Positions 13,074 to 49,135 of a stretch of 54,732 bases of DNA are shown piece after piece. Location of the stretch: assembly GCF_032118995.1 (NCBI RefSeq), contig NC_092652.1, positions 15,816,336 through 15,871,067 of the forward strand, read 5' to 3'. A program made the position numbers and the translations under genes. A model generated the notes under the pieces. It made no database searches and had not been told where the DNA came from. It saw only the letters and a list, made by a program, of their open reading frames with translations. The first letter of the stretch is position 1; every line of letters starts with the position of its first letter. This stretch comes from Asterias amurensis (Eukaryota).

Positions 13074-13199
13074 GTCAGCCAGATAATTGGTTTGGTGGCT
13101 CCAGCACTGGCGAACACTGCTGCCAGTTTTACAATAACATTGGAACGTGGAACGATAACTACTGTGAAACTGGTTTAGGGTATAGCTGCAATCGTGATG
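13074..13199 (+). CDS. exon; CTLD-C C-terminus carrying QPD...WND (GQPDNWFGGSSTGEHCCQFYNNIGTWNDNYCETGLGYSCNRD)
   Basis: Acceptor tcatttccag, donor gtaagt at 13200. The QPD plus WND pair is the galactose-type motif pair. Confidence 0.85.
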
Positions 13200-13811
13200 G
13201 TAAGTGCTCACTTTCTGGTTTTTCTTCTTCAGTTGCTGTGAACACTGCCCAAATGGTATATTTAATAATGCAGCTCTCAGCGTTAAAAAATTCCTGTATT
13301 GATCGTATTCCCACTGTGTTCTCTGCTGCTCTGTGTATGGGTATAAGTTTGCGTGCAAGATGCAAGACGCATGTAATATCTTGACTGCACAGCGTTAACA
13401 TGCAAACACAATGCACAATATTTGCATCTTGTGTACGCATGGCAGACTGTGAGAATACGATCAAAAACGGGATTTTTTTTTGTGAGGAACATATGACGAC
13501 CAAAACCCACCGCAGAAAAATGTATGCTGCCATGGAATGTGAATCTGTTGAAATTAGTGGCTTCTTGCAGGAAGCTTTGAGTTATGAAGCTTTAAAAAAA
13601 TTTCGCCCCAGAAATGGACCCTGATATCCAGGACGTCACTCTAGTATAATGCGAAAGTGTAAGACCGCCAGGGCTAAGTAATTATCTAAAACTATTAATA
13701 ACTGTTAATACTTAACAGTATTTAACAGGGATGGGCATTGTGAAGTCCGAAATGTTGAAAAAGTTGGACTGCCGCCTGATTCGCCCTGATCATTGTCTTT
13801 CCTTCCTCTAG

Positions 13812-14057
13812 ATTACATCTTCAAGTATTACATCTCATTCCCCGAGAAGCAGCTCCTTGGAAACGACGACAAGACGCTGAAGAACATCTTTCCGAGTGAG
13901 TGCGCAAGACGTTGCGTCACCGAAACAGACTTTACCTGTCGCTCATTTGACTATGAACGCAACAAGATGACATGCTACCTCAGTAAGACCGACAAGAACG
14001 TGGCGGGAGGACTTGTACCATCATTTGAATCGCAGCACTTTGACTACTATGAGAGAG
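13812..14057 (+). CDS. exon encoding a complete PAN/apple-like domain (ECARRCVTETDFTCRSFDYERNKMTCYLSKTDKNVAGG), symmetric phase 1-1
   Basis: Acceptor ttccttcctctag, donor gtaggc at 14058. ORF 13793..14116 has the same frame. C..C...F.C.SF.Y......CYL spacing typical of PAN/apple modules. Confidence 0.8.
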
Positions 14058-14454
14058 GTAGGCAATATAAAAACAGATTGGTTTTAACAAAGGATTGTCT
14101 AAATTCTTCCAAGTGACCTATCACTGATTTTTTGAACAAACATTTTAGTCAAATTCTCTTCTTTTTTTAAAATACTTTTTACTTGATTTTGTTGTCTTTG
14201 TTCAATAATAGTTTACTTATACTACGCACATATCTGTCGATAAAGACACCCAAGCCGCACATAGAAAAAATTAATGGTTCATTTAAACAGAAAACTTGAT
14301 TCTGAAAGAACGCTTATTGAAAGAACGCTTATTGTCTTTAAAAATGGACTTGAAGCACCCAAGGGATGTAGATTAACAAAGATCTTATGTGAGAGTGTTC
14401 CAAACTCGTGGAGCAGCCACACAGAATGACCCAAAATTATTTAAAATTTATCTA

Positions 14455-14745
14455 TCAGTCAGTTTCTCTTGTGGTGTATCATTTAAAATCTGAAATAAAA
14501 ATTAGCATCCCCTTTATATGGTGATTTCCCTGGCTCGTCGCTTCCCTGGTTGTAGCGTAAACTTGGATGTGATTCCTGGCTACACGGTAGTTGGCGGTTA
14601 TATATGGCTTTTGACTGGCACCCCTAAACAAAATAGGGAGGCCGCCAACGTAGGGCTAGATAGCTCAGTTGGTAGAGCGCAGGTACGTTATTCCAGAGGT
14701 TGTTGGTTTAAATCTCGCTCTGGTAATTTTTCTTGTTGTGGGAAT
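14455..14745 (+). mobile_element. SINE family 3 copy; tRNA-like unit at 14653-14728
   Basis: gggctagatagctcagttggtagagcgc..ggtttaaatctcgctctggtaa preceded by the conserved module. Accounts for ORFs 14518..14760 and 14669..14911. Confidence 0.6.
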
Positions 14746-15296
14746 CAACTCATGGGGTAAGGCTGACAGCAGACAGAGGACTGGCTATGTGCGTGTCCTC
14801 CGCTGTAATACTGGTGCAGAGACCACAGCAGGGCCCAATTTACCAGGGTTTACCGCTTACCACATTTTTATGCCTGCAATTACCAGTCTCTGCTTACTGT
14901 GCCAGTGTTGATCTTCTGCGCTCGCCTGTTACGCAAATAATGCCTATGGTGCGTTTGTTTAGCTTCCCTGGTGTGTGGCGTTTTTTTTTTCCAGGACGAA
15001 CGTGGGTAATTATCTGCACACGTTCGTCCTGGAAAGAAAAAACGGGACGCTAAACGAACGCACCCCTAGTAACATTGAGTCCGCTTGCACAAGCAAAAAT
15101 GTGAACCTGTGAACTACACTTGAATAAGTGCCGAATTCTCTGCATCCTTGAGCACCAATTCGTTGGTTACGGTAAGCGGACCTATAAAATGGGCCCAGAA
15201 CTGACTGCCTTCATAGGGTTAAGAGAAGATTGGATTGGCGAGAGGCTGTGCTGGTTGCCATTGAAATATTGTTTTATCTGTGTTTCTTTTTGCCAG

Positions 15297-15515
15297 ATTT
15301 CTCTGTGGCAGTTCCAATACCAACTAAAGCTCCTGGTACCGACATGGGATGCGCCAAAGGTTGGGGTCGATACAAGGGGTTCTGCTACTTTGCCAATCTA
15401 GCCGCACTGGAGTTCGCTGAGGCAGAGAAAGCATGCAAGAATCAAGGAGCTGAAATGGCTTCCATTTTAGACATGAATGCCAATAACTTCCTGAGGGCTA
15501 ACATCTACGAGAAAA
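15297..15515 (+). CDS. exon; CTLD-D N-terminal part (DFSVAVPIPTKAPGTDMGCAKGWGRYKGFCYFANLAALEFAEAEKACKNQGAEMASILDMNANNFLRANIYEK)
   Basis: Acceptor ttctttttgccag, donor gtaagt at 15516. ORF 15230..15538. Confidence 0.85.
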
Positions 15516-15631
15516 GTAAGTATTTCAAAACAGAGTAACATTGAAAAATAAACTGAAGTAACACTTTTCGCCATTGGTGAAGGGATGTGATTTCTCTGTT
15601 CTTAAAAAAAAAAGATTCTTGGTTTTTTTTG

Positions 15632-15668
15632 CCCCCCCCCCCCCCACAAAAAGAAAAAAAAAAAAAAT
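15632..15668. repeat. poly-C followed by poly-A tract
   Basis: gcccccccccccccccacaaaaagaaaaaaaaaaaaaa. Confidence 0.9.
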
Positions 15669-15756
15669 AATGAAGATAAAACCATATAAATTACGCCCCA
15701 GATTGCAGAGTAGGGCTTTTAAAACCAAAGATATATGTTATTATTGGGCTTCATGC

Positions 15757-16130
15757 TCGTTGCCTTGGATCGGACGAGTTGGTGTATAAAAAGCGTTTGA
15801 AACCGTTTGTTATAAAATGCATATGGTTAGAAAGATATTTAAAAAGTAGAATATAAGGATCCACACAAGTATCACTCGAAATTGCATGGTTTTCATTTTA
15901 CGTCGTGAACTAACGCGGTTGGCCATTTTATGGAGTCAAAATTTTGACTCCACAAAATGGCCGACTGTGTTTCTTCTCGATGTAAAAGGAAAACCGTGCA
16001 ATTTCCAGGCATGTTTGTGTGGATCATTGTATAATCTACTTTTAAATTATCTATCTGACCATTTGCATAACATAACAAACAGTTTCAAACGCTTTTCAAA
16101 GAACAACTCGACCGATCCAGATTTCCTTTA
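15757..16130. mobile_element. MITE family A copy with degenerate ends
   Basis: Full-length similarity to 3103-3472. Source of spurious ORFs 15886..16131 and 15893..16078. Confidence 0.7.
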
Positions 16131-16213
16131 ATGTTTTGGACAAAAGGCAACACCGTTGCCTACCATGATTCATGTGTTACATCATCATCTGATGACCTTG
16201 TTGTTCTCAACAG

Positions 16214-16371
16214 CAAAGACCATCACTCGCTACTGGATCGGTCTGAATGATAAGAAGACAGAAATGCTGTATGAATGGTCTGATGGTACTCCGGTAACCT
16301 ACACTAACTGGTATGCCCATGAACCCAACGATGCCAACGGTGAAGATTGTGTCGAGATATACACCGACATT
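16214..16371 (+). CDS. exon; CTLD-D middle with EPN (TKTITRYWIGLNDKKTEMLYEWSDGTPVTYTNWYAHEPNDANGEDCVEIYTDI)
   Basis: Acceptor ttctcaacag, donor gtaaga at 16372. ORF 16156..16407. EPN is the mannose-type motif. Confidence 0.85.
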
Positions 16372-16518
16372 GTAAGAAACACTATTTATGTAACTTTTCA
16401 TCAATGATTAATTCCAATGTGAAAGAAGTACTGAGTATACGGTGCTAACACACACCGATATATATGGGTTAAAGCAAAATTAATATTCTGTATGACACAC
16501 CTCTTGCTTGTTCTGTAT

Positions 16519-16614
16519 TCTGGTTGGCTGAAACACAGTCACGTGGGGTGATTTAAAATAGTAATCTGGTTGGCTGAAACACAGTCACGTGGGGTGAACT
16601 AATATAGTCTAGTG
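16519..16614. repeat. 48-bp tandem duplication
   Basis: tctggttggctgaaacacagtcacgtggggtga(t/a)(t/c)taa(a/t)atagt occurs twice. Confidence 0.8.
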
Positions 16615-16662
16615 ATTGTGCGTACATGTTTTGCGTAAATAGTGCCCGATCGGGCACTAGTC

Positions 16663-16926
16663 TTTAAAAAAACACCCTTGTCACATGAAGTTGCGTGCTT
16701 TCAGATGCTTGATTTCGGGACCTCAAAATCTAATTCTGAGGTCTCAAATTCAAATTCAAATATTTTAGTCAAAAAATTACTTCTTTCTCGAAAACTGCGT
16801 TACTTAAGAGTGAGCCATTTCTCAGCATGTTTTATACTATCAACAGCTCTCCATTGCTTGTTACCAAGTAAGTTTTTATGTTAACAATTATTTTAAGTAA
16901 CTACCATTAGTGTCAAGTGCCTTTAA
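16663..16926 (+). mobile_element. MITE family B copy, 5-prime truncated
   Basis: Internal and 3-prime TIR similarity. Accounts for ORF 16642..16884. Confidence 0.7.
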
Positions 16927-16960
16927 ATGAGTATACATGTTTGGAATTACTCTTTAACAG

Positions 16961-17068
16961 GGCTACTGGAATGACTTGAATTGTAAAGGATACACCTTCA
17001 GCTCTATCTGTAAGAAGCCTCTCTCTTCTGGTAACCCAGTACACTTGCCAGCCGCAACATGCCCAACT
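16961..17068 (+). CDS. exon; CTLD-D C-terminus plus linker plus first Cys of CTLD-E (GYWNDLNCKGYTFSSICKKPLSSGNPVHLPAATCPT)
   Basis: Acceptor ctctttaacag, donor gtaagt at 17069. Confidence 0.85.
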
Positions 17069-17165
17069 GTAAGTATACACAGCTCTTTTTCAGAGCCAAC
17101 ACTCCTTTGAAAAGAGATTTTACACATGGTTGTACCCGCAAGTTTACTTGTTATAGTTACTATGG

Positions 17166-17890
17166 TTGTCGTGGCCGAACGGGTAAGAGTACCGAACTCA
17201 AGCTCTTGTGTTTCTGTTAAGCAGAGTGTGCATGGGTTTGAATCCTGGTCCTGACACTTGTCTCCCTCGGAAAGACACTTCTAACTAAAATTGCTTCTCT
17301 CCACCCAGGGGTAATTGGGTACCTGTGAGGGCAGAGATGGTTCTTGTGATTGATTTAGCTTATGCGCATTATTATCGCAGGACAGTTCACTCCCTTAGGA
17401 GCTGAGATGGTTTAAGGAATGAATTAAGGCCCAGTTACCAGGGGTAATAATTTTGGAATCGCTTTAAAGCCATTGGACCCTTTAGGTAAACAGTATTGTC
17501 CAAGGCCCACACTATGTGTATCGCAACTTCGATATAAAATAACAAACCTGTGGAAATTTGGGCTCAATCGGTCATCGGAGTCGGGAGAAAATAACGGGAG
17601 AACCCACCCTTGAATCCGCACGTTTCGCCGTGTCATGACATAAATCCGTAATTCTCGATATCGAAACTTGATATTGTTTTACTGTTTTCTCAAAAAGTAA
17701 TGCTTTTCATGGAATAATATTTCAAGAGAAGTCTTTCACCACTACCTTCTGTAAACCCTGTAAGTTATTTGTAAATCTGTGAACTTTTTTTTTTTTTTTT
17801 TCTGTACCGAAAGGGTCCAATGGCTTTAAGACGCCCTCTGGTTGTGAAAAGCGCTTTATAATAACTGGTTATTATCATTACTATTATTTT
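17166..17890 (+). mobile_element. SINE family 1 copy interrupted by the MITE-G insertion (17465-17829)
   Basis: Head gtcgtggccgaacgggtaagagtaccg...gggtttgaatcctggtcctgacacttg. Tail resumes after the MITE. Confidence 0.7.
17465..17829. mobile_element. MITE family G copy inserted into a SINE, with a perfect TTAA duplication
   Basis: gcTTTAAagccattggaccctttaggtaaac ... gtaccgaaagggtccaatggctTTAAg. The flanking SINE sequence is continuous across a single TTAA (compare 9080-9110 and 48150-48190). Confidence 0.8.
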
Positions 17891-17968
17891 AACTTCTGAT
17901 TTACCACACCATGGATGCAAAGCTTCAAATAACAAATAAGATTAGATACAGATTTAAACCCATAACCT

Positions 17969-18218
17969 GGGCCCAATTTCATGGCTCTGCTTACCGCCGA
18001 ATTCTACGCTTACGATCACGATTCCCCGCTTACGTGCAAGCGCCGAATTTCTGCGCTAGCCTTGTAAGCGTAGAATGCCTAGTAACGCAGAGTACGCACG
18101 CGCAGAAGCCAAAATTCGCCGCTAACCCGTGAAATACGCTTGCCGTAAGCACAGAATTCCCTGCTTCCGTAAGCGCCAATTTTGTGCTTACGGTAAGCAG
18201 AGCCATGAAATTGGGCCC
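17969..18218. mobile_element. MITE family C, CpG-rich subfamily
   Basis: gggcccaatttcatggctctgcttaccg ... cggtaagcagagccatgaaattgggccc. Confidence 0.8.
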
Positions 18219-18315
18219 TGATGATGTCTTTGATATTCCAGAATGAGGTTTATTCATAAAGCGAAGTGAATTTTGTTGCATACCTGATTATTTGAGTCAC
18301 ATAATCTTACTTTGC

Positions 18316-18484
18316 GTGAAGTGGGTTGTCTTTGGCTGTGTGGTTTCTGATCAGCAGAGTGTGGGTTCGAGTCCCTGTCGTGGCTTTTATGTCCTCGAGC
18401 AACTTTACCATAGTTGCTTTGTCCTTCATATGAGACACATAAGCTGTAGGTTCCCGTGGATTTGGTTTGAAGTACCTGCCTGAC
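18316..18484 (+). mobile_element. SINE family 5 partial copy
   Basis: ..ctgatcagcagagtgtgggttcgagtccctgtcgtgg.. plus body similarity to 4100-4300. Accounts for ORF 18292..18483. Confidence 0.55.
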
Positions 18485-18487
18485 TGA

Positions 18488-18648
18488 AGCTCCGTTCATA
18501 CTTCCTGCGAATGCGAAGCGAATGTTGACGTCACAAAAATCGCAACGAATTTCGCAGCAGTTCAGCTCTGTTCAACTCACTTGCGAATATCGCTGCGAAA
18601 GGATAGTTGTTATGTCAAATTCACTTCGCATTCGCAGAACCGGGCTTT
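18488..18648. mobile_element. MITE family F copy
   Basis: ctccgttcatacttcctgcgaatgcgaagcg ... cgcattcgcagaaccgggcttt. Confidence 0.7.
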
Positions 18649-18814
18649 AGTGGGGTTTTCCCTGAAATATTTGTCTGGGGATTACCTACAACATCTAAAA
18701 CTGTTACTTCCTTGTCTTCTCTCCATTGGGTTCTTGGCTAGTACAGTCATTAAGTACGCTTTTCTTTGAGTCCTTAGCTTCAAAACCAGAATAAATGAAA
18801 TGAAATGATAACTA

Positions 18815-19020
18815 AAATTCTGACTGGCACCCCCGAACAAAGATATTAACAAAATAGGGACACCGCCAACATAGGGCTAGATAGCTCAGTTGGTGGAGCG
18901 CTGGCTTGTTAATCCAGAGGTCGTTGGTTCGAATCCCACTCTAGTCAACTCTTTGTTCAACCCCCAAACTCATTTAAAAATTTACCCAGTCAGTTTCCCT
19001 TGTGGTTTATATTGATAACT
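18815..19020 (+). mobile_element. SINE family 3 copy; tRNA-like unit at 18876-18950 (anticodon-loop region cttgttaatcc, Lys-like)
   Basis: gggctagatagctcagttggtggagcgctggcttgttaatccagaggtcgttggttcgaatcccactctagtcaa. The 3-prime acceptor strand mismatches the 5-prime strand, so it is not a functional tRNA. Confidence 0.65.
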
Positions 19021-19054
19021 AGAATTATTACTGTACTTTACCAATCGTTACCAG

Positions 19055-19170
19055 GGTTGGACAGGCTGGAATGATGTGTGCTACAAGATGGATTCTACCA
19101 AGGCTACATGGACTGATGCTGGTACTCAATGCAAGACTGCTGGTGGTCGACTGGTCATCATTGAAGACAA
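19055..19170 (+). CDS. exon; CTLD-E N-terminal part (GWTGWNDVCYKMDSTKATWTDAGTQCKTAGGRLVIIED)
   Basis: Acceptor atcgttaccag, donor gtaaat at 19171. Continues CPT|GW from the previous exon. Confidence 0.8.
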
Positions 19171-19364
19171 GTAAATATGCACTCCACAACGACTGTTTGA
19201 ATCTCAGTATATAGTCTTGTATTGAATTTATTTCAATTCAATTCAATTCAACTACTCTTTATTAGATAAATAATGATAATAATAAAAAGGGTAGATCAAA
19301 TGCTTGCCTGCTGATAAATCATTAAAACATTAAAACAGCTCTTGGGCTTTATACAATTGAAAGT

Positions 19365-19619
19365 AAAACCGCCACACGTCACTTTCACACGAATTTGTGT
19401 GCTTTCGCAGATGCTTGATTTCGAGACCTCAAAATCTAATACTGAGATCTCAAACTTAAATTCGTGGAAAATTACTTCTTTCTCGAAAACTATGTCACTT
19501 CAAAGGGAGTCATTTCTCACAATGTTGTATACTATCATCCTCTCCTTACTCATTACCAAGTAAGGTTTTATGCTAAAAATTATTTTTGAGTAATTACCAA
19601 TAGTGTCCACTGCCTTTAA
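19365..19619 (+). mobile_element. MITE family B copy, 5-prime truncated
   Basis: Similarity to 6081-6473. Accounts for ORF 19342..19563. Confidence 0.7.
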
Positions 19620-19669
19620 AAGAGGTTGGTTTAGAAATTTCTTAAAGAGCAACTGTCTGTTTGTTACAG

Positions 19670-19818
19670 GTATGAGTTATCTTTCCTGAGTGCTCAGCTT
19701 GGAATGGAGAATGGCGATGATTTCTTCATCGGTTTCAGCGACAGTAAAACACCAGGACTCTATGAGTGGATGGATGGATCTTCAGTCACCTACACCAACT
19801 GGGCTGAGGGACAACCTG
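19670..19818 (+). CDS. exon; CTLD-E middle (KYELSFLSAQLGMENGDDFFIGFSDSKTPGLYEWMDGSSVTYTNWAEGQP)
   Basis: Acceptor tttgttacag, donor gtcaga at 19819. Phase 2 in, phase 1 out. Confidence 0.8.
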
Positions 19819-19952
19819 GTCAGAGTCAACACTATATTATCATTTAGGATTTTACATTAAATTTCAACAGATTTGATGGTTTTTGTTTTGTTTTTTTTTA
19901 TATTTTAAGTTTCACCCCTAAAACAAGTTTTTAATTGTAGTTCTAATAAAGC

Positions 19953-20078
19953 TTGCCATTTGTTGCATATTGCTTCTTGCTGGTATTTAACTGTAATTGG
20001 GTTGGTAATCCTGTTTTTATCAAGGAAGAAATATTATGCTAACCAATTTTTTGTGCTTAGCTCTATGAAATTGGGCCC
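19953..20078. mobile_element. MITE family C partial copy (3-prime half)
   Basis: Similarity to 33290-33461 ending in ctctatgaaattgggccc. Confidence 0.55.
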
Positions 20079-20275
20079 AGTTATTAGGCAGTACTTAAGC
20101 AGCAGAGTCAAGCAATCTCCTGAAGACGATCAGAGCACACTGATTGAAACGTTGGGTTGTCAACCACCGGTTCTTTTTAGACCCAAGACTACTCAAAGGA
20201 GATCCTTACATGGTGTTACCACATACCTCTCTTAGCCATACTTCCTCCATGCAAAGTTCCAAATCCTACTTATGA

Positions 20276-20462
20276 AGCCCGGTTCATACTTCCTGCAAAT
20301 GCAAAGGCGAAGCGAGTGTTGACGTCACAAATTCGCAACGCATAATTTGCAGCAGTTCAACTCTGTTCAACTCACTTGCAAACATCGCTACGAAAGGAAG
20401 GAATTGTGACATCAAATTCATGTCGAATTCGCATCCCATTCGCAGGAAGTTCGACCCGGGCT
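20276..20462. mobile_element. MITE family F copy
   Basis: agcccggttcatacttcctgcaaatgcaaa ... cattcgcaggaagttcgacccgggctt. Confidence 0.7.
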
Positions 20463-20490
20463 TAACTCTGATGATTGTTTGTCTCTACAG

Positions 20491-28092: not shown

Positions 28093-28094
<2 letters not shown>

Positions 28095-41575: not shown

Positions 41576-41639
41576 AAAAATTTTCGTCTTGGTCATTTTG
41601 TTTGTTGGTTAAATATTTGACTTGTTGTTTTGTCCGCAG

Positions 41640-41900
41640 ATGGCTTATGGGGTGATACTAACTGTGGTATAGAACAGCACTTTGTTTGCAAGAAAGATTA
41701 CAATAACAAGGTTCCGATTGTGAAGCCTGACCCTCCGCCCGCAGAAGGTAACTGCCCCAATGGGTGGTTCAAGATCGACAAAGGTTGCTACCAGATCAAC
41801 GGAGACACCAGTGATTTCAAGACGTGGGACAACGCTCGCACTGCGTGTAAGGCAAACGAGGGAGGAGGCCTTGCATCCATTCATAATCAAGCGGTTCAGT
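41640..41900 (+). CDS. exon; CTLD-K C-terminus (DGLWGDTNCGIEQHFVCKK), linker, and CTLD-L start (NCPNGWFKIDKGCYQING...GGGLASIHNQAVQ)
   Basis: Acceptor ttttgtccgcag, donor cagt|gtaagt at 41901. ORF 41630..41917. Confidence 0.85.
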
Positions 41901-41949
41901 GTAAGTCTGCCGTTTAACAATGTAATAATAATAATAGTTTGAGAGACTA

Positions 41950-42262
41950 ATCATCCTTACCCGCAGGTATGAGCTGAAATGTGAAGGACGCGGCTACAAC
42001 GTCTTCGAGAAGCAGGCATGCCAGGGCGCCTTTGGCAGCCAGCCACATCAACCCATTTTGACCACGGAGCACAGCCAGAGATCGAAAGTGTTTGATTTTT
42101 CCCGAGGGAGGAAAACCTGATGGTCTGGAAAACCCTAGTGGCACAGCAAAGAACCAACGCACAACGCAACCCACATTATGGCCCTGGCCGGGTATCAAAC
42201 CAGGGTCACCTTGGTGAGAGGCGAGCGTTTTACGCACAAGCCAACCATGCCCCCAAATCATA
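41950..42262 (-). mobile_element. GC-rich repeat with a tRNA-Glu-like head (minus strand), probably a SINE
   Basis: Reverse complement ..cgctcgcctctcaccaaggtgaccctggtttgatacccggccagggcca resembles the tRNA-Glu anticodon, T-arm and acceptor. Accounts for ORFs 41947..42261(-), 42120..42320 and 42178..42585. Confidence 0.4.
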
Positions 42263-42470
42263 TGTCTTATGTAAGATGGTGGGGTTTCGTTGTGAAACGG
42301 TTTGGGGCGATGGACTCTAGTTCTGTAATTTATAATCCTATATTGTATATAAGATGTCGGGATGTCGCGGCCGAACAGTTTTGGGCAGTGGACTCAAGTT
42401 GTGTAGTATTCAATCCTATATCTTATGTAAGATGGTTTGGGGCGACAGACTCGAGTTTTGTTATTTACAG
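42260..42470. repeat. minisatellite, ~68-bp unit x ~3
   Basis: Repeated ..tttggggcgatggactctagttctgtaatttataatcctatattgtatataagatg.. Explains the repeated AVDSSCVVFNPISYVRW in ORF 42178..42585. Confidence 0.75.
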
Positions 42471-42647
42471 AATAAAGGTTCAAATCGGGGCCTGCTCAGT
42501 TGTTTCAAATTTTTATTTTTCGGAATTTCTGGAGAAGCTTTTGGAAAGACAAAATGAAATCCAACCAATTCAATCTGTGAAATAAAGACAAGTATAAAAC
42601 GTTAAAGATTGACCAAACAGGGTTGATGTGTTTGTTTTTGTTTACAG

Positions 42648-42796
42648 CTTTATTGACCTCGTTGATGAAGTTCTCCACTGGGAACCTGTGGACTGGACTA
42701 AGCAACAAAGTGGGATACTATTATGAGTATCATTGGTCTGATAACTCCAATGTTGACTTCCAGCACTGGGCTAGCAACCAACCCAGCTATCCCTAT
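42648..42796 (+). CDS. exon; CTLD-L middle (SLLTSLMKFSTGNLWTGLSNKVGYYYEYHWSDNSNVDFQHWASNQPSYPY)
   Basis: Acceptor tttgtttacag, donor gtaagt at 42797. ORF 42623..42931. Confidence 0.8.
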
Positions 42797-42924
42797 GTAA
42801 GTAGTAATAAGTTACATCCAGTAGTTATAATAATAATATCAAAATCTTATATAGCGCACGTATCTACCAAACAAGGTACTCAGCAAACACAAACTTTCAG
42901 AAAGATAGGTTATTGCAGTGATGA

Positions 42925-43385
42925 ATTCTGAGACCCACTGATTTAGCTATGGCGTATACAGCAGCCACAGCCAGGAACACTGGGGCAAACCCCTTCTCTT
43001 TTCGATAAGTGCACAGCCGTCGATTTCACAAAACTCTTCCTAACTTAAGACTAATCTTAGGACTTAGGACGAGTCCCAACCCTGCACTGTAGCATGCAGA
43101 CCTTAAGATTAATTCTAAGTTAAGAAGAGTTACTCGTCCTAACTCGAGATAAGACGAGTCCTAACTCTTTGTGAAATCGACGGCTGGGTTCTTTTACATA
43201 CATTACACATCACGTAGGACCAACGGCTTTATGTCCATTCCAAAGGACGGAGCAATGGTTGAGTGTCTGGCTTAAGGACACAAGTGTCACGGCTGGGGAT
43301 TCGAACCCACACTCTGCTGATCAGAAACACCCGCCACAAATTTGATGCTCCTAACCTCTCGGCCATGACACTTCCAGTAGTGACA
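42925..43385 (-). mobile_element. SINE family 2 copy, reverse orientation, carrying the nested MITE-D (43017-43186)
   Basis: Flanks align to 39830-40072 when the MITE is removed. Confidence 0.7.
43017..43186. mobile_element. MITE family D copy nested inside a reverse-oriented SINE
   Basis: Interrupts the SINE segment ...cttttcgataagtgcac | ... | ggttctttt. Compare the intact copy at 39930-39960. Confidence 0.75.
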
Positions 43386-43532
43386 CTCTATCAGCTTTTT
43401 TCTACTACATGAATCTATGTTCTTACAAGCACTTAGGAATCCTACGCACTGCTTTCCTAGAAATGTGTGGCTACATTCAGATGAACCTTACAATGTTCAG
43501 CTTCATCAGCACTTGAATTTCATCTTTGTAGA

Positions 43533-43875
43533 GTGTCGCGGCCGAGTGGTTAAGAGCATCGAATTCAAGTTCTGGTGCAGTCACCGGAGTGTGGGTCTGA
43601 ATCCTGGTCGAGACAGTTGTCTCCTTGAGCAAGATACTTTACTATAATTGCTTCTCTTCACCCAGGGGTATAAATGGGTACCTGCGAGGGTAGAGGTTGA
43701 TACTGTGAATGAAAAGCTTTCGGAGCGCCACAGCATCTCGGGGCTGTAAACTCCCTAATGGGAGCTGAGAAAGATTAAAGGGATGTTTATTGGCCCAATG
43801 ACCATGGGACTAATGTAAAGCGCACTGATACGGTTTATTGTGAAATGCGCTATATAAGAATTTGTTATTATTATC
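43533..43875 (+). mobile_element. SINE family 1 full copy
   Basis: Head gtcgcggccgagtggttaagagcatcg...ggagtgtgggtctgaatcctggtcgagac. Tail gcgctatataagaatttgttattattatc. Accounts for ORF 43417..43647. Confidence 0.75.
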
Positions 43876-44108
43876 TTTGAGAGGACAAGGCCATTTTCAT
43901 TTTCCCAAAGGGCATTTCCATAGGAAAGTCTCTCAGAATGTTATGATGGGCACCAAGGCCAAAACCAGGGCAACAGAACAGAATACATGGCCTCAGTAGT
44001 GGCCACTGTGTAATTCCAGGCCTATATTGAAAAAAAAATGTTTACTTTGTAATTATTATTTTTGTCACAATATAATGTTGTATACTGTGTCCTGTTTGTC
44101 TAACGAAG

Positions 44109-44214
44109 GTTGATACTGCTTGTGGAGTTTTGGTGAATGATCCATCATACCCTGGCAGATGGGACGATGTTGACTGCTCTGAACAACATGGCTACCTTTG
44201 CTACAAACCCTTGG
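44109..44214 (+). CDS. exon; CTLD-L C-terminus (VDTACGVLVNDPSYPGRWDDVDCSEQHGYLCYKPL)
   Basis: Acceptor ctgtttgtctaacgaag (AG 44107-44108), donor gtaaga at 44215. Phase fit with neighbours. Acceptor context is weaker than the others. Confidence 0.7.
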
Positions 44215-44473
44215 GTAAGATACAAACTTGTTTTTAGAAAAAAAATGTCTTTATAAAGGTTTTTCGCTAGTTCTGTTTCCCTCCTGTGCCCAATTTCAAG
44301 TTAACAAGCAGGACAGTTATTTTTTAGGACAGAGAAGTCTCCTGAATTCCGAAAATTTTATTCCGCGGTAGTAGACAAACTCTTCTGAACTTCAAAAGAC
44401 TACTTCCCGGTAGTAGAATATAAAACAAGACAAGTTCTCACAAGAACATAATCTACCAAGCAAGTAGATACAC

Positions 44474-44757
44474 ACATGGTGTATACTCGGTACTTTCCCG
44501 AGTTCTGTGAAAAAATTTCACATGCATATTACTCTAGCGGGATTGGATTCCACGACTCTTGCAATTCTAGAGCAGTGTCTTACCAACTAGACTACTTTGC
44601 CTAGTTACTAGAGGCAGTTGGAATCCTATATTTTGGCTGCGGGTACCGGGCAATCTCAGTAGTCTAGTTGGTAAGACACTGCTCTAGAATTGCAAGATTT
44701 GTGGGTTCGAATCCCACCCGAGAAAGTACTGAGAGTATACAGTGCTATGGGTAAAAA
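44474..44757. mobile_element. inverted dimer of SINE family 4 forming a ~120-bp-arm hairpin
   Basis: Arm 44474-44600 is the reverse complement of arm 44660-44757 (..gcaattctagagcagtgtcttaccaactagact..). A-rich tail at 44750-44771. Confidence 0.65.
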
Positions 44758-44820
44758 AAAAAAAAAAAAATGTTTTTATCCCCAATGAAAATTTAACTTT
44801 TTTTATTACTTTGCTTGCAG

Positions 44821-45071
44821 ATCCAGCACTGCCCACTCAAGAACCCTCTTTTGGCGGCCTGTGCCCAGCCAACGGATTCCTCCAATATGGCACTGATTGC
44901 TTCAAACTAATGACTACTCCGATGTCATTCATTGATGCTAAGAAGGCCTGCGAAGGACAGACAGCTACCCTGGCCTCTGTCCGGGATGGCTTCTCGGAAG
45001 CGTTCATCGTGGCCAACATGCTGTACAAGAATAATTTAGACAGCGCTTGGATTGGCTTGACAATAAATGAT
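44821..45071 (+). CDS. exon; linker plus CTLD-M N-terminal part (DPALPTQEPSFGGLCPANGFLQYGTDCFKLMTTPMSFIDAKKACEGQTATLASVRDGFSEAFIVANMLYKNNLDSAWIGLTIND)
   Basis: Acceptor ttactttgcttgcag, donor gtatgt at 45072. ORF 44742..45194 reads through into a MITE. Confidence 0.85.
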
Positions 45072-45136
45072 GTATGTTGTTTATATTTCTCACATTTATT
45101 TCTGCTTTTGTTTTGCTTAACGGGAAGTTACACGTT

Positions 45137-45490
45137 TGGGATTGTCAAAGACCAGTCTTCTCACTTGGTGTATCTCAACATAAGCATACAATAACAAGCC
45201 TGTGAAAATTTGGGCTCAATTGGTCATCGAAGTTGCAAGAAAATGAAGAAAGAAAAAACACCCTTGTTGGACGAAATTGTGTGCTTTTAGATAGGAATAA
45301 AAGACTTCTAGCTAGAAGTCTGTTATTATTTTAGTGAGAAATTGCCTCTTTCTAAAAACTACGTTACTTCAGAGGGAGTCGTTTCCCATAATGTTTTATA
45401 CTATCAACAGCTCTCCAATGCTTGTTACAAGTAAGTTTTTTAAGTTAATATTTGTTTTGAGTAATTACCAAACGTGTACCTTCCCTTTAA
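45137..45490 (+). mobile_element. MITE family B copy, 5-prime TIR truncated
   Basis: Starts 66 bp after the donor at 45072. ORF 44742..45194 reads into it. Confidence 0.7.
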
Positions 45491-45644
45491 TTTGTTTTTA
45501 TATTGTTCTTTTGTATTTGGTGCTGTTGCCCTAATTTACTATAGTCTTCACCAGGATACAGCACCATGCGCTTAGAAACATAATCGTAAGCGTGGCATAA
45601 ATTTATATTATTACTATTGTTGTTATGAAGTAGGATGCTCTTGA

Positions 45645-45815
45645 AAGCATGGTCCAAATTTCCTGCGAATGCGATACGAATTTTGACATCAAAAAATTTG
45701 CAAACAAATAATTCTCATCAGTTGACATGTGCTGAACTCCTGTGAAACCTTTCGCTGCGAAAACAGCCCAGTGACGCCAAAATTTGCATTGCAAGAAGTA
45801 TGAACGGCGCTTAAT
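45645..45815. mobile_element. MITE family F copy, degenerate
   Basis: tcctgcgaatgcgatacgaattttgacatc ... ttgcattgcaagaagtatgaacggcgctt. Confidence 0.55.
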
Positions 45816-46275
45816 ACTATAATAGAACAAGACCGTGTGCCCCCTCCCGCCACACTCCAAAAACCAGCAGGTCTGATACTTTGAATCAAATTTGATCTTC
45901 TGAATTTGTCGAAATCCATCTCCCTAAAACTGCAATGGGACACTATACCTGTATTGTACATGTACTGAGGGTTTCTTTTGGGGGGAGGGGTTAGTTGTTT
46001 GGGGGAGGGTGTGGTAGTTCTTTTATTCTATCTATTTTTAATGAGTTATTTCAACAGTAGTTTAGCTGTTTGGGCACTCCACCCTGAACAAATCGTTTTG
46101 GGGTTTGTTTGTTTGTTTGTTTTGGTTTTTTTTTTGTATTTCTTTTTTCTTCTTTACTGTTATATGTTTGTTTCTCCATTATCAAATGATACAAAAAAAA
46201 CAATTTTATGTGAGTTCTTTTTTCCAAATTTTATGTGAATTCTTATTTCTTTTTGCACACTACCGTTACATACAA

Positions 46276-46675
46276 CATTGTACATGTACAAGTGTGCCGT
46301 TATAAGTTATACAAGTTATTTTGTTTGTCTTTTATACTATAGGCCTATTATGTGTGTTTCTCCATACCAAATGATATGAAAAGCAAGCTAAACATGAGAA
46401 TTTTGTTTTGCAGAATAACGGTACATTCAAGTGGATTGATTGTTGGCCATTGATGTTTACTAGTTGGGCTGATTACGAACATTGTACAAGTGTACTGTTA
46501 TAAGTTATACAAGTTATTTTGTTTGTCTTTTATACTATAGGCCTATTATGTGTGTTTCTCCATACCAAATGATATGAAAAGCAAGCTAAACATGAGAATT
46601 TTGTTTTGCAGAATACCGGTACATTTAAGTGGATTGATCGTTGGCCATTGATGTTTACAAGCTGGGCTGATTTCG
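46276..46675 (+). repeat. ~205-bp tandem duplication spanning the intron 3-prime end, the acceptor and the first 67 nt of exon 46612
   Basis: 46276-46480 and 46481-46675 are near-identical. The junction is at ttacgaac|attgtacaag. Confidence 0.85.
46414..46480 (+). pseudogene. duplicated decoy acceptor plus truncated pseudo-exon (NNGTFKWIDCWPLMFTSWADYEH...), copy of the start of exon 46612-46783
   Basis: 205-bp tandem duplication of 46276-46480 and 46481-46675. First copy has no donor and runs into a stop (..VLL*). Confidence 0.6.
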
Positions 46676-46783
46676 AACCAAGTGAAGAAGACGGAGAGGG
46701 TTGCGTAGTACAGACCAACAGTGCTGACTGGGATTCTATCAAATGTACATTGAAACGTGCATTTGTCTGTCATACAACAGAAA
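46612..46783 (+). CDS. exon; CTLD-M C-terminal part with EPS...WDS (NTGTFKWIDRWPLMFTSWADFEPSEEDGEGCVVQTNSADWDSIKCTLKRAFVCHTTE)
   Basis: Acceptor ttttgttttgcag (second copy of a duplicated acceptor), donor gtaagt at 46784. ORF 46606..46851. Confidence 0.8.
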
Positions 46784-47339
46784 GTAAGTTTATTATTACT
46801 AGTGGTTTATTAAATATACTGCAATACTTAAGCATGCAGCTTTTCAGCTGATTTCCTCTATTTCTTTTTAAAACAGTGCCATAGAAAACTGAAAAACACT
46901 ACAAAAGATAAGTGTGGTTGGTTGTTTTCTCTCCTTTTTTTTTGCAATAAGAAAGTGAAATGTCTGAATACAGCGACTAAAAGCCAAAATGTGCACTTTA
47001 CAAAAGCCATACATATTATTAAAAACATTAGCAGTAAATTACAGATACACACGGAAATGAAAAATAGTTATTTAGAGATATATAAAACACTTTTTTATGA
47101 TAGTACAAAACTCAACAATTTGGACTAAATAAGAATCCAGTCATTAAGAGCAACTATAAATATAAATATTAATAGTAAACTTGCGGGTACAACCAATTTA
47201 TATTTATAGTTGCTCTTATTCTCCACACCATGCAAAGCTTCAAACATCATTTAATTCAGTCATTGCTCATAATCTTGGAATGTCAACAAGATGAATATGT
47301 GCCATCAACAAAAACATGTTGTCAAGACAAACATTAGAA

Positions 47340-47400
47340 TTACATGGTGGCAGTGGCATCTGTCGCCCCTGGCCGTGGTCGCCCCTGGCCTTGGTCGCCC
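47340..47400. repeat. 18-bp tandem repeat x3 (gtcgcccctggcc[gt]tg)
   Basis: ctgtcgcccctggccgtggtcgcccctggccttggtcgcccctggccttggtc. Confidence 0.8.
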
Positions 47401-47528
47401 CTGGCCTTGGTCTTGTTTGCCCCTTCAAAAGTTTTCTTAGACTTTAAGATTCTGCAATAAAAAAGTGCCCTTGGCAAAATGAAAATAGCCTTGCCCTCTC
47501 AACGATGAAGTTCCAGGCCTAAAACTTC

Positions 47529-47702
47529 CACTGGACACCTTTGGTAATTGTCAAAGACCAGTATTCTTACTGTTTCTCAACATAAGCAAAAAAAAAAAAA
47601 AAATCTGTGAAATGTTTTACTCAATTGGTCGTCGATATTGCAAGAGAATATTGAAATAAAAAAACACCGTTGTTGCACAAATTGTTGTGCTTTCAGATGC
47701 CT
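47529..47702 (+). mobile_element. MITE family B copy, 3-prime truncated
   Basis: 5-prime TIR cactggacacctttggtaattgtcaaagacc plus internal region. Confidence 0.65.
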
Positions 47703-47884
47703 AAAAAGGGGCTTCATAAGGCCTGGAGTATTTTACTATTTCGCAAGTAGAAATTAGGTTTCACGTTTTACAAAATATTCCACTTGCCAGCAATTTATTA
47801 ACATTCAACCCTAACGGCAGACTAAAAATGTACAGAGCATTTGTTTCTTGCCCATGCTATGATAATTTGTTTGTTTATTATGGG

Positions 47885-48210
47885 GTGTCGTGGCTGAGCG
47901 GATAAGAGCACCGAATTCAAGCTCTGCTGATTCTGTTCAGCAGTGTGTGGGTTCGAATCCCGGTCGTGACACTTTTGTCCCTGAGCAAGACACTTCACTA
48001 TAATTGCTTTTCTCCACCTAGGGGTAAACAGGTACCTGTGAGGGCAGAGTTGGTTCTTGTGATTGATTAGCCTTGGTTGCGCTACATATTTAGCGGCACA
48101 GGCTGTATACTCCCCAGGGAGCTGAGATGATTTAAGGAATGATTTAAGGCCCAGTGACCAGGGGTAACAATGTTGAAGTGCTATATAAGAAGCCACTATT
48201 ATTATTATTG
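47885..48210 (+). mobile_element. SINE family 1 full copy
   Basis: Head gtcgtggctgagcggataagagcaccg...gtgtgggttcgaatcccggtcgtgacac. The minus-strand 178-aa ORF 47822..48358 lies entirely over this element. Confidence 0.75.
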
Positions 48211-48288
48211 AAGAGTTTTCATTGTTTTGTTTTTTCATTTTAGTCAGTTTCATAAACAATAACTTACCTCTTGTTTTCTCGTGGACAG

Positions 48289-48549
48289 TGGTTCCCCCAA
48301 CACCGCCCTCGTTTATTCCTGGCAACTGTCCCCCAAAATGGATAGGGTTCGGTGACAACTGCTACATGTTTGAAGCAGAGTTGCAGTACGTGTCATGGTG
48401 GGAGGCGTCTTATTTCTGCGAGAAAACCTTTGACAATTCGCACATCTTGAACATCCACAGTAGAGGGGAGAATGCATTTGTCAAGAGGGTAGCTGCAGAG
48501 AAGTATGGGTACTATGGAGTGTGGCTGGGCTTGACACGTAACACAACTG
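48289..48549 (+). CDS. exon; linker plus CTLD-N N-terminal part (VPPTPPSFIPGNCPPKWIGFGDNCYMFEAELQYVSWWEASYFCEKTFDNSHILNIHSRGENAFVKRVAAEKYGYYGVWLGLTRNTT)
   Basis: Acceptor ttttctcgtggacag, donor gtaagt at 48550. ORF 48222..48557. Confidence 0.85.
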
Positions 48550-48949
48550 GTAAGTAAGCGTGATCTTTCATATTTGGTTGAAGATTAAGCTTAAGTATGC
48601 CTTTATATTTTTTAATCATCCAATGGGGGACTTTGCGGACGCGTGGTGGCAGCAGACTTACAGGTAAAATACAATTTACCTGGTAAGTCTGCTGCCACCT
48701 AAACATTCCGAAGTCTCCCATTGGTTTAATCTTATGTAGTTGTAGATATATTTGTGTGAGATACAGTGTTTAATCCAGATAAAAACCTTTGGCAGTTGAA
48801 GAAAAGTTTATTTATGATGATAGAGCTTGGGAGTATGCAGTGCTAACACACATCAGTGTATGTGGGTTAAAATCAAAATTATTATTCTTTATCCCCGATG
48901 CAAATTTCCATCTATTAAATCACTGGCCTTGTTTCATTTCCCTCTGTAG

Positions 48950-49135
48950 CTGTAGACAAGCAGGAGTTTCTCTGGAACGACGGTCAGCCGCTGGATTACA
49001 CAAACTGGAAAGTAGGAGAACCAGACAACGAGCTAGATTCCGAGGACTGTGTACGCATAATGACATCGGAGTACGGCAAATGGGAAGACACTGGATGCGC
49101 CTCTTACTCACAGTTAGTCTGCAAGAGACCCAAAG
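48950..49135 (+). CDS. exon; CTLD-N C-terminal part with EPD...WED (AVDKQEFLWNDGQPLDYTNWKVGEPDNELDSEDCVRIMTSEYGKWEDTGCASYSQLVCKRPK)
   Basis: Acceptor tttccctctgtag, donor gtacgt at 49136. Confidence 0.85.

What the first reader, a model, noticed from the sequence alone, without database searches (positions are those of the whole stretch)
13074..49135. Mosaic of predicted sugar specificities along the CTLD array
Reading the long-loop and beta-4 motifs: CTLD-D (HEPND...WND) and CTLD-F (GEPND...WND) carry the mannose/GlcNAc-type EPN. CTLD-C (GQPD...WND) and CTLD-H (NQPD...WND) carry the galactose-type QPD. CTLD-G has QPD with WRD. Others have EPD/WFD (J), QPN/WGD (K), QPS/WDD (L), EPS/WDS (M), EPD/WED (N). 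A, B, I and O lack the triad altogether. A single polypeptide would then combine Man-type, Gal-type and non-lectin CTLDs, which suits a broad pattern-recognition role.
Basis: partly seen in the sequence, partly recalled or inferred. Interest (0 to 1): 0.5.

Follow-up and report, generated by a model that had tools for sequence, protein, structure and literature searches.

The report
Sea-star multi-lectin receptor, few active sites
The window is the interior of an already annotated sea-star gene for a giant membrane protein made of 19 C-type lectin domains, and only three of the 15 domains encoded here keep a complete sugar-binding calcium site (one galactose-type, two mannose-type), so the proposed mosaic is real but much narrower than suggested.

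Summary

The window threads at 100% identity, over 47 + strand exons, onto residues 344-2567 of Asterias amurensis XP_071789139.1. That protein has a signal peptide, 19 CTLDs, a PAN domain after CTLD5, a transmembrane helix and an FDNVLY tail. One polypeptide is therefore supported at the gene-model level.

Only three in-window CTLDs have all five site-2 ligands:
- C: QPD, with Trp at +4 and an ASGPR-like Gly-rich loop.
- D: EPN.
- F: EPN.

These three states are unchanged in the Acanthaster and Patiria orthologues, and C, D and F are the most conserved domains there.

The other domains are incomplete. H (QPD/WND) has Thr in place of the Glu, and its orthologues read QND/QKD and WLD. G has WRD. 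J to N are incomplete and drift between species.

The reading is partly supported: there are two predicted specificities, not many. This is a new member of a known kind, the mannose-receptor-like multi-CTLD receptors. No binding or pattern-recognition role has been tested.

The parts
147..54434 (+). Interior of one gene: 47 exons encoding residues 344-2567 of Asterias amurensis XP_071789139.1 (P0120).
   Evidence: Exact threading of P0120 onto the window at 100% identity, 46 GT-AG introns and one GC-AG. An independent de novo splice model gave the same boundaries except for five linker micro-exons, the upstream CTLD-A exon at 147-225 (the de novo model started at 1642), and the middle exons of CTLD-K.
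10650..13199 (+). CTLD-C (CTLD5), exons 10650-10823, 11982-12098 and 13074-13199. Complete Gal-type site: QPD 13076-13084, Trp at +4 13088-13090, Glu 13112-13114, WND 13148-13156.
   Evidence: Pfam 47 bits. The loop QPDNWFGGSSTGEHC aligns with ASGR1 QPDDWYGHGLGGGEDC. The five ligands are identical in Acanthaster and Patiria. AF2 model pLDDT 84, TM 0.78-0.83 to ASGR1, MGL and SRCL CRDs.
13812..14057 (+). PAN/apple domain on a single phase 1-1 exon between CTLD-C and CTLD-D
   Evidence: Pfam PAN_1 at 50 bits, cut-off 21.4. A gap of about 100 aa follows CTLD5 in most of the echinoderm and hemichordate homologues examined, and all list PF00024.
15297..17068 (+). CTLD-D (CTLD6), exons 15297-15515, 16214-16371 and 16961-17068. 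Complete Man-type site: EPN 16321-16329, Glu 16342-16344, WND 16967-16975. Site-1 ligands D, E, D, D are also present.
   Evidence: The closest solved single domain is the Endo180 CRD2 with bound fucoside, 9qy1, at 85.6 bits.
19055..20621 (+). CTLD-E (CTLD7). QPD is split by an intron (19812-19818 + 20491-20492), Gly replaces Glu193 (20502-20504), WTD 20544-20552.
   Evidence: The same QPDD..G.C..WxD state occurs in most of the ambulacrarian homologues examined.
20661..24321 (+). CTLD-F (CTLD8), the 3' part of exon 20491-20702 plus 21745-21872, 22337-22395 and 24151-24321. Complete Man-type site: EPN 24204-24212, Glu 24228-24230, WND 24267-24275.
   Evidence: The best solved single domain is mannose-receptor CTLD4, 1egg, at 77 bits. 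It also best-matches MRC1 CTLD4 in domain-by-domain phmmer.
27284..29743 (+). CTLD-G (CTLD9). QPD 29198-29206, Glu 29222-29224, but WRD 29669-29677 (Asn205 replaced by Arg). Site-1 ligands absent.
   Evidence: Orthologues have WLD.
29774..31907 (+). CTLD-H (CTLD10). QPD 30597-30605, Thr in place of Glu193 (31808-31810), WND 31853-31861. Trp is at +3, not +4. Site-1 ligands absent.
   Evidence: Orthologues read QND/S/WLD and QKD/S/WLD.
32584..49135 (+). CTLDs I to N (CTLD11-16) with incomplete sites. I: SPI/L/WSN. J: EPD/A/WFD (36737-36745, 36794-36802). K: QPN/Q/WGD (40927-40935, 41648-41656). L: QPS/T/WDD (42779-42787, 44160-44168). M: EPS/E/WDS (46675-46683, 46729-46737). N: EPD/E/WED (49018-49026, 49081-49089).
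   Evidence: K to N are a block duplicate of G to J. The ligand states differ in Acanthaster and Patiria.
147..9293 (+). CTLD-A (CTLD3, exons 147-225, 1625-1750, 3571-3645) and CTLD-B (CTLD4, exons 6500-6661, 7629-7717, 9155-9293). No triad (MTP/K/WNV and HPK/D/WRT).
51730..54434 (+). CTLD-O (CTLD17), exons 51730-51885, 53106-53242 and 54322-54434. FPD 53231-53239, WKN 54376-54384. No site.

Best explanation
The window is the middle of a sea-star (Asterias amurensis) gene for a type I membrane protein. The protein has a signal peptide, 19 tandem C-type lectin-like domains, a PAN domain after CTLD5, one transmembrane helix and a short tail carrying FDNVLY.

It belongs to a family found in the echinoderms and the hemichordate examined. 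The ancestral form has 12 CTLDs. The CTLDs of this family are positionally similar to those of the vertebrate mannose-receptor family.

Shown: of the 15 CTLDs encoded here, only three keep the full Ca2+ site 2 (E/Q-P-N/D, Glu, Asn-Asp).
- CTLD-C carries QPD, a Trp at +4 and a lengthened Gly-rich loop, as in the asialoglycoprotein receptor.
- CTLD-D and CTLD-F carry EPN...E...WND, as in MBP-A, Endo180 CTLD2 and MR CTLD4.

Inferred: C binds Gal/GalNAc-type sugars. D and F bind Man/GlcNAc/Fuc-type sugars, each through Ca2+-coordinated 3- and 4-hydroxyls. The remaining domains are sugar-inactive spacers or protein-binding modules that hold the active N-terminal CRDs away from the membrane. Most of them derive from block duplication of CTLD9-12 followed by decay of the site. 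The FxNxxY tail drives endocytosis of bound glycoconjugates.
For: Gene structure:
- The window threads at 100% identity onto P0120 over 47 exons.
- An independent de novo model gives a 2131-aa open reading frame with no stops.
- Pfam finds Lectin_C 14 times plus a partial copy, and PAN_1.

Binding-site alignment:
- Reference sequences were verified identical to 1KWT and 1DV8.
- Alignment places the triads and WND at MBP-A 185-187 and 204-206.
- The five-ligand table is complete only for CTLD5, 6 and 8 in the window, plus CTLD1 upstream of it. The same four are complete in Acanthaster P0121. In Patiria P0122 the same three in-window domains are complete, and its model lacks CTLD1.
- The motif states are identical in A. 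rubens.
- C, F and D are the three domains most conserved against Acanthaster (64, 64 and 61%, versus 40-59% for the others). Against Patiria, C and F lead at 63-64% and D is 55%.
- Site-1 ligands are present in D, largely present in F, and absent in G and H.

CTLD-C specifically:
- Its loop aligns residue for residue with ASGR1, including the stacking Trp.
- CTLD5 of the other echinoderm classes and the hemichordate is EPNN..GE[HD]C, so this is a lineage-specific EPN to QPD switch.
- The AF2 model of C has pLDDT 84 and TM about 0.8 to solved CRDs including ASGR1, MGL and SRCL.

Relation to the mannose-receptor family:
- Nearest solved domains: C to CTLD1 of the MR family, D to CTLD2 (Endo180 9qy1), F to MR CTLD4 1egg.
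- FxNxxY is conserved in all 12 echinoderm members examined and equals MRC1 FENTLY.
Against: - No binding, expression or localisation data exist for this protein. The literature searches found nothing.
- EPN/QPD is an imperfect predictor. From my own knowledge, the sea-cucumber lectin CEL-IV has EPN but binds galactose, and the tunicate lectin TC14 has EPS and binds galactose.
- In CTLD-C the positions of the site-1 ligands D188 and D194 are Asn and His.
- The long-loop region of the C model has only moderate confidence, pLDDT about 69-75.
- In DEC-205 and PLA2R no CTLD binds sugar, so multi-CTLD receptors can be purely protein-binding.
- Two non-canonical states are widely conserved and may be functional in unknown ways: QPDD..G in most CTLD7 domains, and EPS..GEGC..WDD (WND in the hemichordate) in the CTLD11-type domains of the 12- to 14-CTLD relatives.
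Confidence: 0.65

Rival explanations
1. Most triad-bearing CTLDs (C, D, F, G, H and the EPD, QPN, QPS and EPS variants J to N) are active CRDs with different specificities, giving a very broad pattern-recognition surface.
For: Variant motifs such as EPD are routinely treated as sugar-binding in invertebrate lectin papers, for example scallop CfLec-3 (PMC4432315, listed). The EPS..GEGC..WDD state (WND in the hemichordate) is conserved in the CTLD11-type domains of the 12- to 14-CTLD relatives, from hemichordate to echinoderms. The QPD..GNxxDC..WND pattern of H recurs in a brittle-star protein and a Patiria paralogue.
Against: G, H, J, K, L, M and N each lack at least one of Glu193, Asn205 and Asp206. 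Their ligand positions differ between Asterias and the Acanthaster and Patiria orthologues, while those of C, D and F do not. G and H also lack the site-1 ligands.
Confidence: 0.12
2. A non-lectin scaffold. As in DEC-205 or PLA2R, the CTLDs bind proteins or other ligands. The conserved EPN/QPD-WND residues in C, D and F only hold a structural Ca2+.
For: Most domains here are clearly degenerate. The vertebrate relatives with the best PDB scores include DEC-205, PLA2R and FcRY. To my knowledge these are not sugar receptors.
Against: All five sugar- and Ca-ligating residues plus the cis-Pro are conserved in C, D and F across three sea-star genera. CTLD5 acquired the complete Gal-type signature of QPD, Trp at +4 and an extended loop, which is hard to explain without selection on sugar binding. 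The positional counterparts Endo180 CTLD2 and MR CTLD4 have solved structures with bound sugar (9qy1, 7l63).
Confidence: 0.18
3. A gene-model artefact. The array is really two or more adjacent genes or a pseudogene, so no single polypeptide combines the domains.
For: RefSeq lists isoforms of 2933, 3278 and 3633 aa that differ at the 3' end, which suggests read-through or uncertain ends. No transcript data could be examined here.
Against: All 47 exons join in frame with no stop over 2224 codons, and nearly all inter-domain introns are phase 1. No signal peptide, stop codon or transmembrane segment lies inside the window part. Collinear orthologues of 2642-2825 aa exist in Acanthaster and Patiria. 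The isoforms are identical over the window part.
Confidence: 0.05

Closest known systems
Vertebrate mannose receptor family (MRC1/CD206, MRC2/Endo180, PLA2R, DEC-205, FcRY)
   Same: It is a type I membrane protein with a long tandem CTLD array in which only a few domains keep a sugar site. It has a short tail with FxNxxY (FDNVLY versus MRC1 FENTLY). Domains match in order: sea-star CTLD5, 6, 8, 9, 10, 15 and 16 best-match MRC1 CTLD1, 2, 4, 5, 6, 7 and 8, while CTLD7 scores 86 against CTLD2 and 74 against CTLD3. D resembles Endo180 CTLD2 and F resembles MR CTLD4, which are sugar-binding domains.
   Different: There is no CysR (ricin-B) domain and no FNII domain. Four extra CTLDs lie N-terminal, and a PAN domain is inserted between the CTLD1 and CTLD2 equivalents. 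It has 19 CTLDs rather than 8-10. The CTLD1 equivalent (C) carries a Gal-type site, which the aligned CTLD1s of FcRY, PLA2R and DEC-205 lack.
Asialoglycoprotein receptor H1 / macrophage galactose lectin CRDs
   Same: CTLD-C has QPD, Trp four residues after the Gln, a Gly-rich extended loop, Glu-x-Cys and WND in the same columns. The fold model superposes at TM 0.78-0.83.
   Different: Overall identity is only about 28-29%. The loop is one residue shorter. Positions 188 and 194 are Asn and His instead of Asp and Asp. Here the domain is one unit in a 19-domain chain, not a type II oligomeric receptor.
Rat mannose-binding protein A and its engineered QPD/Trp/Gly-loop galactose-binding mutants (Drickamer and co-workers, recalled from my own knowledge)
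   Same: D and F share all five site-2 ligands with MBP-A. In other echinoderm classes and the hemichordate, CTLD5 is EPNN..GE[HD]C. In this sea-star clade it is QPDNW plus a loop lengthened by three to six residues. These are the same three changes used to convert MBP-A to galactose binding.
   Different: This is a natural change inside a membrane receptor array and is untested biochemically. MBP-A is a soluble collectin trimer.
Invertebrate multi-CRD C-type lectins read by EPN/QPD motifs (for example scallop CfLec-3, PMC4432315; insect dual-CRD immulectins)
   Same: One chain combines CRDs with different motif classes, interpreted as broad non-self recognition.
   Different: Those are small secreted proteins with 2-4 CRDs and some binding data. 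This is a 2933-aa membrane receptor with no data.

Membership tests
C-type lectin-like domain (Pfam PF00059) | Profile match above the gathering threshold, with the conserved Cys framework and the WIGL element | tested here: met
   B to O score 47-87 bits against a cut-off of 22.6. A is partial because the domain query used for Pfam (from the de novo model) lacked its upstream exon at 147-225. The Cys and WIGL columns align.
Ca2+-dependent carbohydrate-recognition CTLD (canonical site 2) | E/Q-P-N/D in the MBP-A 185-187 columns | tested here: met
   Met in C, D, E, F, G and H. Variants in J to N. Absent in A, B, I and O.
Ca2+-dependent carbohydrate-recognition CTLD (canonical site 2) | Glu at MBP-A position 193, two residues before the Cys | tested here: inconclusive
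   Present in C, D, F, G, M and N. Replaced in E (Gly), H (Thr), J (Ala), K (Gln) and L (Thr). The result differs by domain.
Ca2+-dependent carbohydrate-recognition CTLD (canonical site 2) | Asn205-Asp206 (WND) | tested here: inconclusive
   Present in C, D, F and H only. Taken with the other rows, all five ligands occur only in C, D and F.
Ca2+-dependent carbohydrate-recognition CTLD (canonical site 2) | Measured Ca2+-dependent sugar binding | not testable with these tools
   This needs recombinant domains and a glycan array. No literature was found.
Galactose-type CRD (ASGPR/MGL-like) | QPD, Trp at +4 and an extended Gly-rich loop before Glu-x-Cys | tested here: met
   Met in CTLD-C: QPDNWFGGSSTGEHC versus ASGR1 QPDDWYGHGLGGGEDC. 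Not met in H, where Trp is at +3 and there is no Glu.
Mannose receptor family (group VI multi-CTLD endocytic receptors) | N-terminal cysteine-rich (ricin-B) domain | tested here: not met
   In P0120, CTLD1 starts at residue 25, directly after the signal peptide. PF00652 is not among its Pfam domains.
Mannose receptor family (group VI multi-CTLD endocytic receptors) | Fibronectin type II domain before CTLD1 | tested here: not met
   PF00040 is absent from P0120 and from all the echinoderm and hemichordate homologues, although it is listed for the vertebrate and Ciona hits.
Mannose receptor family (group VI multi-CTLD endocytic receptors) | Tandem CTLD array, single transmembrane helix and a short tail with a Tyr-based endocytosis motif | tested here: met
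   19 CTLDs, a transmembrane helix and FDNVLY. The helix and tail lie outside the window.
Mannose receptor family (group VI multi-CTLD endocytic receptors) | Domain-by-domain correspondence to MR CTLD1-8 | tested here: inconclusive
   Best phmmer matches are collinear for 6 of 8 domains in the urchin and crinoid homologues and for CTLD5, 6, 8, 9, 10, 15 and 16 here. The margins are sometimes small and no phylogeny was built.
PAN/apple domain (PF00024) | Profile match above the gathering threshold | tested here: met
   50 bits against a cut-off of 21.4, on exon 13812-14057.

The most novel reading that the evidence does not exclude
The conversion used the same three changes that protein engineers used on MBP-A: EPN to QPD, a Trp at +4, and a lengthened Gly-rich loop. 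This happened inside a receptor whose CTLD5-12 are domain-for-domain counterparts of vertebrate MR CTLD1-8. That would make the echinoderm and hemichordate 12-CTLD/PAN receptors the invertebrate sister of the mannose-receptor family, with lineage-specific retuning of specificity.
Probability: 0.4. Interest if true: 0.5.

Novelty: new member of a known kind. Interest (0 to 1): 0.3.

Why it matters
If the predictions hold, sea stars carry a mannose-receptor-like endocytic receptor that reads two sugar classes with three or four active domains on a very long stalk of inactive ones. That would give a concrete candidate for glycan-based non-self or clearance recognition in an echinoderm. It would also give a natural example of an EPN to QPD specificity switch that can be tested by ancestral reconstruction. 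On its own, reading EPN/QPD motifs in a multi-CTLD protein is routine annotation, and the gene is already in RefSeq.

Tried and rejected
- My first homologue search used a 415-aa D-E-F query. It returned only proteins of 723 aa or fewer, at up to 48% identity, and wrongly suggested the species was not in the database. The full 2131-aa query found the exact protein.
- My de novo splice model differed from the RefSeq protein in the same way at three kinds of place. It missed five linker micro-exons (5371-5403, 9541-9579, 25313-25354, 37772-37807, 50227-50238). It also lacked the upstream CTLD-A exon at 147-225. For CTLD-K it joined 39339 directly to 40834 ('LIGALTDNDLNDFIY'), whereas the RefSeq protein uses exon 39697-39770 and then 40881. 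None of these differences touches a site-2 residue.
- A threading run restricted to GT donors failed until GC donors were allowed.
- The fold search reports only global scores, so residue-level structural superposition on MBP-A or ASGPR could not be done. Placement of the ligands rests on sequence and profile alignment.
- Minus-strand and other intronic ORFs of 100 aa or more have no Pfam match. The window holds no second gene.
- Literature searches for this family in echinoderms found nothing relevant.

Full report
**What the window is**

The window is eukaryotic DNA with G+C of about 0.39, short exons, and introns full of interspersed repeats. The + strand carries a long series of C-type lectin-like domain (CTLD) exons, with two to four main exons per domain.

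I built a splice model from open frames and GT-AG scoring. It gave a 2131-codon reading frame with no stops.

A search with the full model found P0120, which is XP_071789139.1, 'uncharacterized protein isoform X3', from Asterias amurensis, 2933 aa. Threading that protein onto the window gives 47 exons at 100% identity for residues 344-2567. One intron is GC-AG.

My own model differed from the RefSeq protein by five short linker micro-exons, by the upstream CTLD-A exon at 147-225, and in the middle exons of CTLD-K. None of these touches a binding-site residue.

The whole protein has a signal peptide, 19 CTLDs, PAN after CTLD5, a transmembrane helix and a tail with FDNVLY. The other RefSeq isoforms differ only beyond residue 2710, outside the window. 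Other ORFs in the window have no Pfam match.

**Check of the observation**

The finding's start and end coordinates are exact exon boundaries.

I verified my reference sequences of rat MBP-A and human ASGR1 as identical to PDB 1KWT and 1DV8. I then aligned them with the 15 CTLDs using MAFFT. Separately, I aligned them with all CTLDs of 13 homologues by hmmalign to a profile.

In both alignments the tripeptides fall in the columns of MBP-A E185-P186-N187, and the W-x-D falls in those of W204-N205-D206. The first refutation criterion, triads outside site 2, is therefore not met.

After splicing it reads QPDD...AGNC...WTD.

**The other ligands**

Site 2 needs five side chains: 185, 187, Glu193, Asn205 and Asp206. 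The states in the order 185-186-187 / 193 / 204-205-206 are as follows.

| Domain | 185-187 | 193 | 204-206 |
|---|---|---|---|
| A | MPT | K | WNV |
| B | HPK | D | WRT |
| C | QPD | E | WND |
| D | EPN | E | WND |
| E | QPD | G | WTD |
| F | EPN | E | WND |
| G | QPD | E | WRD |
| H | QPD | T | WND |
| I | SPI | L | WSN |
| J | EPD | A | WFD |
| K | QPN | Q | WGD |
| L | QPS | T | WDD |
| M | EPS | E | WDS |
| N | EPD | E | WED |
| O | FPD | N | WKN |

Only C, D and F are complete. The auxiliary site-1 ligands are intact in D, nearly intact in F, altered in C (Asn and His at positions 188 and 194), and absent in G and H.

**Comparative test**

In the collinear orthologues from Acanthaster planci (P0121) and Patiria miniata (P0122), C, D and F have the same five residues. 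CTLD1, upstream of the window, is also complete in Asterias and Acanthaster; the Patiria model lacks it.

The other domains drift:
- H becomes QND/S/WLD and QKD/S/WLD.
- G becomes WLD.
- J, K, M and N change at several ligand positions.

C, F and D are the three domains most conserved against Acanthaster, at 64, 64 and 61% identity, against 40-59% for the rest. Against Patiria, C and F lead at 63-64% and D is 55%. The A. rubens orthologue has the same motif states.

The complete sites therefore look constrained, and the incomplete ones look relaxed.

**CTLD-C**

Its loop, QPDNWFGGSSTGEHC, aligns with ASGR1 QPDDWYGHGLGGGEDC. The match includes the Trp four residues after the Gln and a Gly-rich extension that is one residue shorter.

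In urchins, crinoids, sea cucumbers, a brittle star and Saccoglossus, the CTLD5 counterpart is EPNN..GE[HD]C...WND. In the 12- to 14-CTLD Asterias paralogues it is EPN..GE[NH]C...WND. The QPD, Trp and longer-loop state is thus a change within one sea-star gene lineage.

An AlphaFold model of C has mean pLDDT 84 and pTM 0.82, with 69-75 in the long loop. It matches solved CRDs, including ASGR1, MGL and SRCL, at TM about 0.8.

**Relation to known receptors**

The best PDB matches are multi-CTLD receptors of the mannose-receptor family:
- C matches their CTLD1 best.
- D matches CTLD2 best. Its best single solved domain is Endo180 CRD2, solved with bound fucoside.
- F matches MR CTLD4 best among single domains.

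Domain-by-domain phmmer scores show collinearity with MRC1 CTLD1-8 for CTLD5, 6, 8, 9, 10, 15 and 16 here. They also show it for six of eight domains in each of the urchin and crinoid proteins.

The 19-CTLD array equals the 12-CTLD array plus duplicates of blocks 9-12 and 10-12. The FxNxxY tail motif is shared with MRC1 FENTLY.

The protein lacks the CysR and FNII domains that define the vertebrate family, and it has a PAN domain instead. I therefore call it mannose-receptor-like, not a member of that family.

**Mechanism and verdict**

Shown:
- one gene,
- correct placement of the motifs,
- complete and conserved sites in C, D and F only.

Inferred:
- Gal/GalNAc binding by C,
- Man/GlcNAc/Fuc binding by D and F,
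- a spacer or non-sugar role for the rest,
- endocytosis through the tail.

Nothing here tests a pattern-recognition role, and no literature on this protein was found.

Reading EPN/QPD in multi-CRD invertebrate lectins is routine, and the gene is already annotated. The finding is a correct but ordinary annotation-level observation whose scope should be narrowed.

Noticed in passing
window 10650-49135, with P0120, P0129, P0130 and P0161: The CTLDs are collinear with vertebrate MRC1. Sea-star CTLD5, 6, 8, 9, 10, 15 and 16 best-match MRC1 CTLD1, 2, 4, 5, 6, 7 and 8. Urchin CTLD5-10 match MRC1 CTLD1-6, and crinoid CTLD5, 7, 8, 9, 10 and 12 match CTLD1, 3, 4, 5, 6 and 8. This suggests that the 8-CTLD core of the mannose-receptor family predates the split between chordates and the echinoderm-hemichordate group.
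   Followed up: partly
window 27284-54434 (CTLD9-17) and beyond: The 19-CTLD array looks like a 12-CTLD ancestral array plus internal block duplications. CTLD13-16 best-match CTLD9-12 of the 12-CTLD relatives. CTLD17-19 best-match CTLD10-12 of the 12-CTLD Asterias rubens paralogue, though less cleanly against the urchin protein. In the urchin and crinoid, CTLD9, 10 and 12 mostly carry full EPN sites. In this gene the whole membrane-proximal part, CTLD9-19, has lost them.
   Followed up: partly
window 31889-32530: A 56-bp minisatellite of about 11.5 copies is built from the last bases of exon 31796-31907 plus its splice donor. The donor sequence is therefore repeated many times down the intron.
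   Followed up: no
window 29894-30032: A 72-bp tandem duplication copies the 3' end and donor of exon 29661-29927. This gives equivalent in-frame donors at 29928, 30000 and 30066, which could add in-frame insertions of 24 or 46 residues.
   Followed up: no
window 46285-46678: A 198-bp duplication (two copies, 95% matches) copies the acceptor and 5' part of exon 46612-46783 (CTLD-M). The upstream copy (ORF 46375-46500) ends in a stop, so it is a pseudo-exon.
   Followed up: no
window 40834-40880 versus exon 39697-39770: The open frame just upstream of the acceptor at 40880 encodes a degenerate WIGL-like segment (LIGALTDNDLNDFIY) contiguous with the exon. The RefSeq protein uses a separate WIGL exon at 39697-39770. 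The segment may be a relic of an exon duplication or an alternative 3' splice site.
   Followed up: partly
window 25355: The single non-canonical intron has a GC donor. It follows the linker micro-exon 25313-25354.
   Followed up: no
window 4013-4100, 18875-18947, 39032-39104, 44653-44725: ARAGORN calls four tRNA-like sequences (Leu, Asn, Asn, Ser) in introns on the + strand. Self-BLAST shows about 40 intronic repeat blocks, including families of 7-9 copies of 350-400 bp. These are probably tRNA-derived SINEs or other short interspersed elements rather than tRNA genes.
   Followed up: no
CTLD-E (19055-20621) and CTLD-M (44821-46783); homologues: Two non-canonical site states are conserved far beyond sea stars. 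CTLD7 keeps QPDD..G.C..WxD in most of the echinoderm and hemichordate homologues examined. The CTLD11-type domains of the 12- to 14-CTLD relatives keep EPS..GEGC..WDD (WND in the hemichordate). This conservation without a full Ca2+ site is unexplained.
   Followed up: no
window 13812-14057: A PAN/apple domain sits on one phase 1-1 exon between CTLD5 and CTLD6. A gap of about 100 aa follows CTLD5 in most homologues examined, and all the echinoderm and hemichordate homologues list PF00024. Its role is unknown.
   Followed up: partly
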